DNA from: Gammaproteobacteria bacterium
Lineage (GTDB): Bacteria; Pseudomonadota; Gammaproteobacteria; JABDGN01
NCBI GenBank assembly: GCA_034110705.1
Contig: JAWUYR010000030.1
Span: 243 to 64,242, forward strand
DNA: 64,000 bases
Direction: 5' to 3'
The stretch's first letter is position 1, and the number at the start of each line of letters is the position of its first letter. The position numbers were made by a program. Below are positions 31,001 to 34,000 of this stretch, in pieces.

Positions 31001-34000
31001 TAACATTTCCCGTAATGCCGATAGACTGGCAAATGTTACGTTGGCAATGAGTTTATTAGAAAGTGATCTACAAAATGTGATTAATCGGCCGATTACAGAT
31101 GCGAGTGGTGTGAGTCAAGCACCTGTACTACTTAATGATGATGCGTGGCAAACGTTAGATTTAACCCGAGCCGGTGTGGCAAATCCTTTAGCTCAGTAGC
31201 GTAGTACATTAATGCGTATTGGCTACCAAATCCAAAATGGTGATTTGGTTCGTTTGATTTGGCCAGTGCTAGACCCTGTTGCCACGACGAACTCAACCAA
31301 AAGAATTTTACTGAAAAACATTACACACTGGCAGTGGCAGTTTTTAGGTTCTGACAATCGTTTTTATCCCTCATGGCCTGCAACGAATGCGGCTAATCAA
31401 CCGCTGCCTAAAGCGATAAAGATTACTCTGACAATTAGAAAGTGGGGTACAATTACTCGTCTTTTTGTGGTGCAGAATCATGTCGTTTCTAAAGATTCTA
31501 GAATAGTATCTTAAAAAGTGTTCAAATCTTGAGCCATCCTCTGATACTTGCTATCCTTGAAAACATGTTTTAATAGGTTAATCTCATGAAACAATTTAAA
31601 GTATATCTTATCGTCTTTAGTTCATTATTGTTTGTACTGAGTACTGCCAAAGCGGCAGATGATATTGGCATGTTAGGTCTACACGACTTTAGCCTAGGCA
31701 ATAATATTAAACCGCAAGAACAAAACATTGAAGAGACTCAACAACTTTGTGTCTATAGTATTCCCAGCGGGAAATATCAAATTGAGTTTATGTCTTCTGA
31801 TCATAAAATTTTTTACATGCAAAGTGATAAGCATAAAGTGCCAGTAAAGATTTATTGGAACGATATAGAACTACAACCTAATACACCATTAATTTTTACT
31901 ACTGGTGCAAAAGTAAGACCAACGACCAATTGTCAAAATGTAAAATTAACATATAAAATACAAAATATGAACCATACAAAAACAGCCGGTAGCTACCGAG
32001 AAAACATGCATTTTAAGTTAGTTAAAATAGCGTGAATAAACAACAACAATCAGGTGCCGCTTTAATAATGGCTTTACTGTTAGTCGCAATTGTTTCCGCT
32101 ATCTCCATTGGTATCTTCTTTAGTCAACGCGTGCAAATTCAAAGTGAAACCTTAAAGGAAACTGCGGACCAAGCCTACGCTAATGCTGAATATGCACCAC
32201 TTTGGGCAAAAAATCGTTTAGCAGTCTTACATACACAGCTGACCCAACAAAAAATCATTCCGCTATGGCCACAAAATATGTCGCCAGAAACGTTTGAGGA
32301 TGGCAGCATACTCATAAGCCAATTAATCCCAGCTAACAGTCAATTTAATATTAACAATTTAGCCACGCCGGTTTCTTTATATTTACCTGTGTTTGAAAAT
32401 CTCATGCAAACGGTCGACTCGAATGTGAATGCTGACAAAGCTAAACAGATTGCCCTAAGCACCCAAGCTTGGTTAATAAATGCAGCACAAACGGCTCAAT
32501 TGAATAATCCTTACGGTAAAATGTCACCGCCATATCAAGCAGCGGACAGGCAAATGGCCAGCAGTAGTGAATTACGTTTAGTCGATGGCATGACCACCGA
32601 ACTGTATCAAAAGCTGCGCCCTTATATTATTGCACTACCTGATACCAACACGCCAATTGATATTAATAATGCCTCTAAAAGCATTCTCATGGCACTGCTT
32701 GAGCAAGATGAAGCGGCAGCGGACGCGGTGATCGACTATCGCAAAAGTCATGGTGGGTTTTTAACAAGCGATTTGTTTTTAGGTTTGCCATCAGTCATCC
32801 CTTATTTGGGTAAGAAAAGTCAACTATCGAAAATAATTTCGGCAAAGGAAGCAACGTATTATTTACTGCGCAGCCAAATAAAACATGATAAGCTATCATT
32901 TCATGTGCTGACAATTTTGCGTTATGACGCAAGTAAAAAAGCATTAACCATCTTAAGACAAGGGCAAAGCTTATAATGACCACTCACGTTATTATTCGTA
33001 TTATCGATACTGAACATTTAGATTATTTTATCGAGAATGAGTCCGGGGATATCCTTTCTTCTGGCAGCGCTTTTCATCATGATCAGTTGCCAGAATTTCC
33101 AACCGCTACTCAAACAACGCTTATCGTGCCAGGAGAAAGTGTTTTAGTCTTAAATGTACAGCTTCCTAAAATGTCACGTGCACAATTGGTAAAAGCATTA
33201 CCTTACGCACTAGAAGAGCAATTAATAGATGAGCCAGAAGCTTTACACTTTGTGCCAGGTAAGCAAGATATCGCCGGTAACATCAGTGTAGCCGTTGTTA
33301 AAAAACAGTTAATGATAGCTTGGCTAGAGCAATGTTATGCCTTAAATCTTTTTCCCAAAATAATTTTACCGGATTATTTGGCAATACCGTATTTAACTGA
33401 CGAATTACATTTATATTTAGATAATGACCGTGTGCTTATTAGAGAATCGTTGTTAAAAGGCATGACAATTGAGCAAGGCCAATTAAATAGTATTTTAAGC
33501 TTATCGCTAGCTGAAGCTGGTGAACATAACCTAAAAAAAATTGTACTAGACTATGATGACGGTAGTGAACATTATGATCCTGCTATGCTGCAAGGATTAG
33601 GGCTTCCAGTTGAAATGAGAGAAACAGATACCTTTAGTATGCAATTATTTGCCCAAGGTCTTGCCCAAAAATCGAGCCTAAATTTATTACAAGGTGATTT
33701 TCAAGCTGATCGTCCCGCCTCAAAAACGACGAAGATTTGGAAATGGGCGGCAATCTTCCTACTCGCATGGTTAGTCATTTGGTTAGCTGGCAATGTAACA
33801 CAATATTTTGTGTATCAAGATCGTTTAAATAACAGCAATGCTGCTATTTCAGTTCTGTATAAAAAATTATTCCCGAACGCGCAGAGCCAAGTTGATCCAC
33901 GCTTAAGAATACAGCGTGCTTTAGATTCCCGTCAGGCGACAGGTTCAGGCGGTCCTTTTCTTAGCTTGCTGACTCGAGTAGGCCAGCAACTAAAACAGCA

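What the first reader, a model, noticed from the sequence alone, without database searches (positions are those of the whole stretch)
31586..32035. Unknown secreted 149-aa protein inserted inside the pseudopilin operon (between gspJ and gspK), translationally coupled to gspK
Canonical gsp operons run gspJ-gspK directly. This ORF has a Sec signal peptide and its stop overlaps the gspK GTG. It could be a lineage-specific T2SS accessory, a pseudopilus-tip factor, or a dedicated substrate. No known family was recognised.
Basis: seen in the sequence. Interest (0 to 1): 0.55.

Follow-up and report, generated by a model that had tools for sequence, protein, structure and literature searches.

The report
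Orphan pilus-tip gene inside secretion operon
The small secreted protein between gspJ and gspK is not a secretion-system part by origin: it is the last surviving gene of a chaperone-usher pilus operon that relatives still carry at this spot, and gspK now depends on it to start translation.

Summary
Window 31586-32035 (+) is a real 149-aa gene with a Sec signal peptide, lying between gspJ and gspK. Its TGA stop overlaps the gspK GTG start (GTGA).

No Pfam or NCBIfam family matches it, but it is not an unknown fold:
- A profile of its nine-member family matches the pilin-like subunits of a chaperone-usher (CU) pilus operon (hhalign 98%, E 5e-14).
- Its AlphaFold model hits CfaE, CfaB, CS17, CupE and CsuA/B pilins.

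In three relatives the homolog is the last gene, just after the usher, of a class-5-type CU operon (CfaA-like chaperones, TcfC/CooC-like usher) inserted between gspJ and gspK. Outgroups have gspJ abutting gspK.

In the window lineage the chaperones, usher and other subunits are gone and only this gene remains. It lacks the N-terminal donor strand of its paralogs, so it is a tip-type subunit.

gspK here has no ribosome-binding site of its own. A close relative keeps only a 67-codon in-frame stub that still ends on the gspK start, so the ORF serves as a coupling leader.

The protein is still under purifying selection, so a co-opted role, possibly linked to type II secretion, is not excluded. Interest is moderate.

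The parts
31586..32035 (+). ORF149: 149-aa precursor of a chaperone-usher pilin-fold protein (tip type, no donor strand). Orphaned last gene of a class-5-like pilus operon.
   Evidence: ORF and translation. Family of 9 proteins. hhalign to CU-operon subunits 98.2%, E 5e-14. AlphaFold pLDDT 66, with Foldseek hits to CfaE, CfaB, CS17, CupE and CsuA/B. Position after the usher in L001, L005 and L006.
31586..31654 (+). Sec signal peptide (residues 1-23, predicted cleavage AKA|ADD).
   Evidence: Read from the sequence. Hydrophobic maximum at residues 8-17 and an AXA site. Helix 4-18 in the model.
31655..32032 (+). Mature 126-aa beta-sandwich domain. Family-invariant residues are Q52, C55-V-Y-S58, Y64, P86, W91, L96, C116 and G135-x-Y137 (C-terminal F-strand motif AGSYRENMHFKLVKIA). 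It starts about 15-25 residues later than its paralogs, so it has no N-terminal extension.
   Evidence: Alignment A2. Distance from cleavage site to first conserved Cys is 31-32 residues, against 46-57 in paralogs. hhalign register: query 26 aligns with template column 44.
31523..31558 (+). Conserved intergenic element, promoter-like: TTGAGC (31529-31534), 17-nt spacer, TATCCT (31552-31557). Inferred promoter for ORF149-gspKLM.
   Evidence: The hexamer blocks are identical in window, L013 and L001 while the spacer varies. The element is below the threshold of the consensus scan (8 of 12 matches). Function is inferred, not shown.
31575..31577 (+). Shine-Dalgarno-like AGG, 8 nt before the ORF149 ATG.
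   Evidence: AGG, GAGG or AGGAG is present at this distance in all lineages.
32032..32035 (+). GTGA: gspK start codon overlapping the ORF149 stop codon (termination-reinitiation coupling site). There is no SD-like sequence in the 15 nt upstream.
   Evidence: The same 4-nt overlap is in L001 (GTGA) and L013 (ATGA). The outgroup L015 instead has GGGGAG inside the gspJ 3' end.
32032..32976 (+). gspK (minor pseudopilin), the gene coupled to ORF149. It is followed by gspL (32976-34202) and gspM (34195-34686).
   Evidence: NCBIfam NF037980, 155 bits; Pfam T2SSK_1st. ORFs.
30891..31517 (+). gspJ, the upstream neighbour, interrupted by an in-frame amber codon at 31197-31199. It marks the left edge of the former pilus-operon insertion site.
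   Evidence: Pfam T2SSJ and TIGR01711 hit both halves. Translation. L013 has CAA at that codon.

Best explanation
ORF149 is the orphaned terminal gene of a class-5 ('alternate', CfaA/CfaC-type) chaperone-usher pilus operon. In the ancestor of this small uncultured gammaproteobacterial clade, that operon was nested between gspJ and gspK.

In relatives that keep the operon, the protein is the only subunit without an N-terminal donor strand, and its gene sits directly after the usher, where class 5 operons place the tip adhesin gene cfaE. It is therefore inferred to be the tip or initiator subunit: it accepts a strand from the chaperone and then from the next subunit, and donates none.

In the window lineage the two chaperones, the usher and the other subunits have been deleted. 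ORF149 survives together with about 70 nt of upstream DNA that carries a conserved promoter-like element.

Its survival has a cis explanation. gspK has no ribosome-binding site of its own in this subclade, and its start codon overlaps the ORF149 stop codon. Ribosomes finishing ORF149 are therefore the likely source of gspK (and hence gspL and gspM) translation.

Shown: homology, synteny, loss of the operon at this locus in the window, the coupling anatomy, and purifying selection. Inferred: the tip role, promoter activity, dependence of gspK on the ORF, and what the exported protein does today. The protein is still constrained, so it probably still does something. It has no usher at this locus, and none is detectable in the searched database.
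For: Homology to pilus subunits:
- Family profile against 12 subunits from the pilus operons of L001, L005 and L006: hhalign 98.2%, E 5e-14, 120 columns, signal peptides excluded.
- The AlphaFold model built with the family alignment (pLDDT 66, pTM 0.57) hits only chaperone-usher pilins at the top: CfaE 6k73 E 2e-4, CfaB 4y2l, CS17 8ehs, CupE 8cio, CsuA/B 6fqa, FimG, CooA.

Nature of the operon:
- The usher has Pfam TcfC plus CooC_C domains.
- The chaperone profile hits CfaA structures at E 1e-23 to 1e-24.

Synteny:
- L006: gspJ, operon, usher, homolog.
- L001 and L005: operon, usher, homolog, gspKLM.
- Window, L013 and L038: gspJ, homolog, gspK.
- The outgroup L015 and 17 other loci: gspJ directly abutting gspK.
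- Ushers are 47-52% identical and there are two orthologous chaperone pairs, matching Gsp divergence. This points to vertical inheritance and secondary loss.

No donor strand: the first conserved Cys is at residue 50-55, against 68-81 in all paralogs.

Machinery absent: no chaperone or usher in the 64-kb window, and no ortholog of the usher in the 5.8-billion-protein database that contains this assembly's proteins.

Coupling:
- GTGA overlap and no SD before gspK in window, L013 and L001, while ORF149 has its own SD.
- L013 keeps only codons 1-54 and the last 9 or so, in frame, still ending ATGA on gspK.

The donor-strand mechanism and initiation by the tip subunit are taken from PMC7531860.
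Against: The protein does not look like a dead relic.
- All 12 family-invariant residues are intact.
- dN between window and L001 (0.18) equals that of GspK, GspL and GspM.
- The window-branch dN since the split from L013 is 0.045, against 0.03-0.04 for Gsp genes (only 53 codons).
- In another lineage without the operon at this locus (L007 against L038), dN/dS is 0.13, the same as for gspJ.

A cis role alone does not explain amino-acid conservation.

A pilin fold without a chaperone is expected to be unstable (PMC7531860), so an exported, constrained orphan is unexplained.

Weak points in the data:
- The structure model is of moderate confidence.
- The family has only 9 members, all from metagenomic contigs.
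- The rest of the window's genome could not be searched directly.
- The L013 contig also has a frameshift in gspM, so it may be of poor quality or come from a decaying locus.
- Promoter activity and coupling are untested.
Confidence: 0.62

Rival explanations
1. Co-opted type II secretion factor. The pilin-fold protein was recruited after loss of the usher, either as a dedicated T2SS substrate or as a periplasmic partner of the GspK/I/J tip. It is made in step with GspK through coupling.
For: - It is glued to the gspK start in 7 of 8 lineages, whether or not the pilus operon is present.
- Purifying selection in pilus-less L007 against L038: dN/dS 0.13.
- The window branch is constrained.
- L007 and L038 proteins carry a 12-residue C-terminal extension past the F strand, which would not fit the chaperone cleft that anchors pilin C-termini (PMC7531860).
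- The faster deep-branch evolution followed by renewed constraint fits a change of function.
Against: - In L006 the gene stays with the usher and is followed by an EamA-like gene, not gspK.
- L013 has deleted the body of the protein.
- L010 and L037 copies have lost the signal peptide.
- No T2SS family signature and no prepilin motif.
- Adjacency is equally explained by gspK needing an upstream ORF for coupling, as it uses gspJ in outgroups.
- gspJ itself carries an amber codon here.
Confidence: 0.22
2. Pure relic. The protein has no function and is degraded after export. Only the act of translating the ORF (promoter plus ribosome delivery to gspK) is selected. The apparent constraint reflects recent orphaning or selection against toxic misfolding.
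For: - The L013 minigene keeps only the two ends.
- Signal peptide lost in L010-12 and L037.
- dN is 1.5-2.3 times that of Gsp proteins in comparisons involving operon-less lineages.
- The L013 branch is 3-4 times faster than Gsp genes.
- No chaperone or usher found.
- CfaE-type subunits are unstable without a chaperone (PMC7531860).
- The gene is an AT-rich island, 32% GC.
Against: - Window-branch dN is about 0.045, where neutrality would give about 0.3, at normal dS.
- The full-length window-L001 dN is not inflated.
- L007-L038 dN/dS is 0.13.
- All invariant residues and the Cys pair are intact.
Confidence: 0.25
3. Working pilus subunit. The chaperone-usher genes were relocated elsewhere in this genome, outside the window or unassembled, and ORF149 still caps that pilus.
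For: - The window copy keeps the same short C-terminus (VKIA) as the operon-bearing L001 (VKLA) and is constrained.
- These operons break metagenome assemblies: L001 and L002 both end inside the operon. They could therefore be missing from a bin.
- L006 shows that the locus can be rearranged.
Against: - No usher closer than 27% identity exists in the database that holds this assembly's proteins. The only NCBI hit is from a 54% GC organism.
- Nothing in the 64-kb window.
- Tip genes are normally co-transcribed with their usher.
Confidence: 0.12
4. Chance ORF or mis-annotation with no gene.
For: A 149-codon ORF is not impossible by chance in 64 kb at 40% GC.
Against: - 68% identical homolog with dN/dS about 0.1.
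- Family with 12 invariant residues.
- Own SD and a signal peptide.
- Profile homology to pilins.
Confidence: 0.01

Closest known systems
Pilin domain of class 5 fimbrial tip subunits (CfaE of CFA/I; the equivalents CooD and TcfD named from general knowledge)
   Same: - Best structural match is CfaE (6k73_C/D, E 2e-4).
- In relatives the gene lies directly after a TcfC/CooC-type usher.
- The operon chaperones match CfaA at E 1e-24.
- No N-terminal donor strand.
- Incomplete Ig-like fold with a C-terminal F-strand motif.
   Different: - 126 mature residues, a single domain. There is no N-terminal receptor-binding adhesin domain (CfaE has about 360 aa in two domains, PMC7531860).
- No detectable sequence similarity to the Pfam CS1 or SCPU models.
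- In the window it has no chaperone, usher or shaft subunit.
- The relatives' operons are larger than class 5 operons, with two chaperones and 5-6 subunits.
Major pilins of class 5 and archaic pili (CfaB, CooA, CS17, CsuA/B, CupE1/SCPU)
   Same: - Similar size and fold (TM 0.45-0.55).
- Paralogous subunits in the same operons weakly hit CsuE and SCPU profiles.
   Different: - Major pilins carry the N-terminal donor strand that ORF149 lacks.
- 12-16% sequence identity only.
Non-core genes embedded in type II secretion operons (for example the substrates PulA and SslE/YghJ, or the pilotins; from general knowledge, not tested here)
   Same: An exported, non-Gsp protein encoded within a gsp cluster and co-expressed with it.
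   Different: - Those are large enzymes or lipoproteins with no pilin fold.
- None is known between gspJ and gspK.
- No evidence here that ORF149 is secreted by the system.
Minor pseudopilins GspH, GspI, GspJ and GspK
   Same: Neighbouring genes and small size. Like gspJ in outgroups, the ORF is translationally coupled to gspK.
   Different: ORF149 has a signal-peptidase-I type Sec signal rather than the prepilin G|FTLxE leader and hydrophobic helix. It has a different fold.

Membership tests
Chaperone-usher pilus subunit (pilin fold) | Sec signal peptide and periplasmic export | tested here: met
   MKQFK, hydrophobic core, AKA|ADD. Read from the sequence; no dedicated predictor was available.
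Chaperone-usher pilus subunit (pilin fold) | Incomplete Ig-like beta-sandwich resembling solved pilins | tested here: met
Chaperone-usher pilus subunit (pilin fold) | Sequence homology to subunits encoded in bona fide chaperone-usher operons | tested here: met
   hhalign A2 against A3: 98.2%, E 5e-14. The Cys...Cys...G-x-Y pattern is shared.
Chaperone-usher pilus subunit (pilin fold) | Encoded together with a periplasmic chaperone and an outer-membrane usher | tested here: not met
   None in the window (tblastn; Pfam of large ORFs). No orthologous usher in the protein database. The feature is met in relatives L001, L005 and L006.
Chaperone-usher pilus subunit (pilin fold) | N-terminal extension (donor strand) for polymerisation | tested here: not met
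   The mature N-terminus is 15-25 residues shorter than in all 11 Cys-bearing paralogs (register). This is the condition expected of a tip subunit, not of a shaft subunit.
Chaperone-usher pilus subunit (pilin fold) | Chaperone-dependent folding and incorporation into a fibre | not testable with these tools
   Needs co-expression or pull-down experiments, or multimer prediction.
Class 5 tip adhesin (CfaE/CooD/TcfD type) | Two-domain architecture: N-terminal adhesin domain plus C-terminal pilin domain (about 360 aa) | tested here: not met
   149 aa, one domain. CfaE domain limits are from PMC7531860.
Class 5 tip adhesin (CfaE/CooD/TcfD type) | Gene immediately downstream of a CooC/TcfC-type usher | tested here: inconclusive
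   True for the homologs in L001, L005 and L006. In the window the usher is absent.
Type II secretion pseudopilin or known Gsp accessory protein | Prepilin leader (G|F-T-L-x-E), or a match to any T2SS family model | tested here: not met
   No N_methyl, T2SS or Gsp hit in Pfam or NCBIfam at E<=1, while the neighbouring genes hit strongly.
Type II secretion pseudopilin or known Gsp accessory protein | Presence at this position in type II secretion operons generally | tested here: not met
   gspJ abuts gspK, with no intervening ORF149-like gene, in L015 and 17 other loci.
Pfam SCPU (PF05229) / Fimbrial_CS1 (PF04449) | Score above the Pfam gathering threshold | tested here: not met
   No hit for ORF149. 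Only sub-threshold hits for some paralogs.

The most novel reading that the evidence does not exclude
After the pilus machinery was lost, a donor-strand-less pilin domain was co-opted as a new component or dedicated cargo of the type II secretion system. It would be made in fixed ratio with the tip pseudopilin GspK. Its open groove might be filled by a strand from a Gsp protein or a substrate. That would be an evolutionary bridge between chaperone-usher and type II secretion machineries.
Probability: 0.2. Interest if true: 0.65.

Novelty: new variant of a known kind. Interest (0 to 1): 0.38.

Why it matters
- It turns an 'unknown T2SS accessory' into an identifiable object: a new, very rare family of chaperone-usher pilin. 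Only 9 members were found among about 15 billion proteins, and no Pfam model covers it.
- It reveals an unusual architecture: a class-5-type pilus operon nested inside a type II secretion operon at the gspJ/gspK junction. In this clade that junction also captures eukaryote-like effector genes and an IS fragment.
- It is a clean example of how translational coupling can preserve a leftover ORF after its operon is deleted. It is also a caution against reading operon membership as function.
- If the constrained orphan protein has acquired a type II secretion-linked role, that would be new biology. This is unproven.

Tried and rejected
- Single-sequence AlphaFold gave pLDDT 43.8 and was unusable.
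- A profile of the family against PDB sequences gave only noise.
- A metagenome scan with the family alignment was impossible because no block is conserved enough. The scan with the gspK alignment found nothing close.
- The genome scan did not contain the window's own genome.
- The exact-protein look-up of the window's gspK found no record. The assembly accession, and so the rest of the genome, could not be reached.
- A search for a deletion scar, meaning usher remnants in the gspJ-ORF149 spacer of the window or L013, gave nothing above shuffled controls.
- Rfam found no RNA family in 30800-32400.
- An RNA fold around the gspK start pairs the GUG in a local hairpin, but z = -0.86, and by eye the pairing is not evident in the L001 and L013 sequences. 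It was not used.
- The consensus promoter scan did not flag the conserved element (8 of 12 matches) and flagged several AT-rich matches near chance level.
- dS is saturated for most pairs, so dN relative to Gsp neighbours was used instead.
- Rejected: pseudopilin (no prepilin motif), chance ORF (conserved), and phage or plasmid cargo (the flanks are housekeeping genes: thyA, gpsA, secB, grxC; ptsP, dsbD, groEL).
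Full report
**1. The observation**

Window 31586-32035 (+) is an ATG-initiated 149-codon ORF.
- It begins with a typical Sec signal: MKQFK, then VYLIVFSSLLFVLS, then T-A-K-A|A-D-D.
- An AGG lies 8 nt upstream of its start.
- It ends in TGA, which overlaps the GTG of gspK as GTGA.

The surrounding operon is gspD-E-F-G-H-I-J, ORF149, gspK-L-M, with gspC convergent on the minus strand. Neither Pfam nor NCBIfam recognises ORF149. One omission: gspJ (30891-31517) carries an in-frame TAG at 31197-31199.

**2. How rare the gene is**

A word-indexed search of 5.8 billion clusters found only the protein itself and one 68% homolog. An exhaustive HMMER pass over 1.84 billion representatives found seven proteins. 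A profile search added one more.

The family alignment A2 has 12 invariant positions. They include a Cys pair (C55, C116), W91, P86 and a C-terminal G135-x-Y137 motif.

**3. Genomic contexts, the decisive evidence**

| Locus | Identity to ORF149 | Arrangement |
|---|---|---|
| L001/L002 | 68% | pilin-like genes, chaperone, 841-aa usher (Pfam TcfC + CooC_C), homolog, gspK-L-M |
| L005 | 46% | five subunit genes, two chaperones, usher, homolog, gspKLM |
| L006 | 35% | gspF-G-H-I-J, five subunits, two chaperones, usher, homolog, then an EamA-like gene; no gspK |
| L007-9 | 33% | gspD..J, three Ras/Arf/Roc-RING genes, homolog overlapping gspK |
| L038 | 29% | gspJ, 135 nt, homolog, gspK |
| L010-12 | 30% | gspJ, IS fragment, homolog, gspK |
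| L013 | closest relative; gspK 85% identical | gspJ, 126 nt, 67-codon stub, gspK |
| Outgroup L015 and 17 more distant loci | none | gspJ directly abuts gspK |

The operon chaperones match the CFA/I chaperone CfaA at E 1e-23 to 1e-24. This is therefore a class-5 ('alternate') chaperone-usher system.

The ushers are 47-52% identical between L001, L005 and L006, and the two chaperones form orthologous pairs. This matches the divergence of GspK, GspL and GspM. The operon was therefore inherited vertically together with the gsp locus.

The window and L013 are sister to the operon-bearing L001 (gspK identities 85% and 76%). Absence of the operon in the window is therefore a secondary loss.

**4. 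What the protein is**

- The family profile aligns with a profile of 12 subunits from those operons at 98.2% probability, E 5e-14, over 120 columns that exclude the signal peptides.
- AlphaFold with the family alignment gives an eight-strand beta sandwich (pLDDT 65.9, pTM 0.57).
- Foldseek against the PDB returns chaperone-usher pilins at the top: CfaE in complex with CfaA (6k73, E 2e-4), CfaB, CS17, CupE, CsuA/B, FimG, CooA and the PapG pilin domain.
- The subunit profile weakly hits CsuE and a CupE/SCPU protein through the C-terminal aGtYxDtltv motif.

ORF149 differs from every paralog in one respect. Its mature chain starts only 6-7 residues before the first core motif, IGMLGLHDF. The paralogs have 23-27 residues there. 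The first conserved Cys is at residue 50-55, against 68-81.

That missing segment is where pilins carry their donor strand. In donor-strand exchange each incoming subunit donates its N-terminal extension to the groove of the previous one (PMC7531860). A subunit with a groove but no extension can therefore only be the first, distal one.

Class 5 tip subunits are encoded after the usher and initiate assembly (same paper). ORF149 homologs occupy exactly that position. I therefore infer a minimal tip or initiator subunit. It is equivalent to the CfaE pilin domain without the adhesin domain.

**5. Why it is still there**

In window, L013 and L001 the gspK start has no Shine-Dalgarno-like sequence (window...ttagttaaaatagcGTG), and it overlaps the ORF149 stop by 4 nt. 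ORF149 has its own SD in every lineage. In the outgroup L015, gspK overlaps gspJ and has a GGGGAG inside the gspJ 3' end. gspK thus seems always to be translated by coupling to whatever ORF precedes it.

Homology between the window and L001 begins exactly after the gspJ stop codon in the window and after the usher stop codon in L001. It includes a 36-nt element, TTGAGC-17 nt-TATCCT. Its hexamer blocks are identical in three lineages while the spacer varies, which is the signature of a promoter.

L013 has lost codons 55 to about 140 by an in-frame deletion. It keeps the promoter-like element, the SD, the first 54 codons and the last 9 or so. It still ends ATGA on gspK. This is what would be expected if the essential function is delivering ribosomes to gspK.

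**6. Is the protein itself still used?**

Some evidence points to decay:
- L013 has deleted the body of the protein.
- L010-12 and L037 have lost the signal peptide. In L010-12 the remnant MKKILLVTL is out of frame. In L037 an in-frame TAA lies 6 codons before the start.
- ORF149 evolves 1.5-2.3 times faster than Gsp proteins in comparisons involving operon-less lineages.

Other evidence argues against decay in the window:
- dN between window and L001 is 0.18, against 0.17-0.25 for GspK, GspL and GspM.
- In a three-taxon decomposition over codons 2-54, the window branch has dN 0.045 (Gsp genes 0.028-0.038). The L013 branch has 0.122. dS between window and L013 for this region (0.74) is like that of the Gsp genes.
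- L007 and L038, which both lack the operon at this locus, give dN/dS 0.13. This equals the value for gspJ.

The protein therefore appears constrained without a neighbouring usher. No chaperone or usher is present in the window. The only usher relatives in the protein database are 27% identical or less and come from unrelated organisms. MAG incompleteness remains a caveat, because these operons break assemblies.

L007 and L038 proteins also have a 12-residue C-terminal tail beyond the F strand. This would not fit the chaperone cleft that anchors pilin C-termini. That hints at a usher-independent life in that lineage.

**7. Verdict**

- Identity and origin (an orphaned tip-type chaperone-usher pilin) are well supported, at about 0.85.
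- The cis role as promoter-proximal coupling leader for gspKLM is well motivated by anatomy and by the L013 stub, but it is untested (about 0.55).
- The present function of the protein is unresolved. My estimates are a co-opted role about 0.2, a pure relic about 0.25, and service to a relocated pilus system about 0.12.
- It is not a pseudopilin and not a known type II secretion component.
- Novelty: a new, very small pilin family in an unusual setting, so a variant of a known kind and not a new system.

Noticed in passing
window 31197-31199 (within gspJ 30891-31517): gspJ is interrupted by an in-frame amber codon (…NPLAQ*RSTLMRIGY…). The relative L013 has CAA (Gln) there. The same TAG is in an independent JGI contig that is 99.97% identical (L003). 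The part after the stop is still under strong constraint (dN/dS 0.08-0.10 against L013). The mutation is therefore recent, suppressed, or tolerated as a split gene. An ATG at 31212 could restart translation.
   Followed up: partly
L001, L005, L006, L007-9, L010-12 (junction equivalent to window 31517/31586): The gspJ/gspK junction is an insertion hot spot in this clade. It holds a class-5-type pilus operon (three lineages), three eukaryote-like Ras/Arf/Roc plus RING-finger genes (L007-9), or an IS fragment (DDE_Tnp_1_5, L010-12). The eukaryote-like genes suggest a host-associated lifestyle.
   Followed up: partly
L013 2851-3360: gspM of the closest relative is frameshifted after …NVPFDD; the C-terminus continues in another frame. 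Either the type II secretion locus is decaying in that organism or the contig has an error. This weakens L013 as a witness.
   Followed up: partly
window 31586-32035: ORF149 is an AT-rich island: 32.2% GC (GC3 26.7%) against 39-44% for the flanking gsp genes. The same holds in L001 (33.8%).
   Followed up: yes
window 34709-35212 (-): gspC is encoded convergently on the opposite strand just after gspM. This arrangement is conserved in the six clade loci that extend past gspM (window, L001, L005, L007, L010, L013).
   Followed up: no
L006 10455-15461: In this relative the type II secretion cluster is split. The ORF149 homolog is followed by an EamA-like transporter and a yacG-coaE-pilD-pilC-pilB cluster instead of gspKLM.
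   Followed up: no
window 47154-49094 (-): A 646-aa ORF with no Pfam match at E<=1e-5, among otherwise housekeeping genes (purD, accC, dsbD, groEL, ptsP, gpmI, radA, glyA).
   Followed up: no
window 31930-31959: The best consensus promoter match in the region (TTGTCA-18-TAAAAT, 10 of 12) lies inside ORF149, about 75 nt before gspK. The stretch is deleted in L013, so it is probably not essential.
   Followed up: partly
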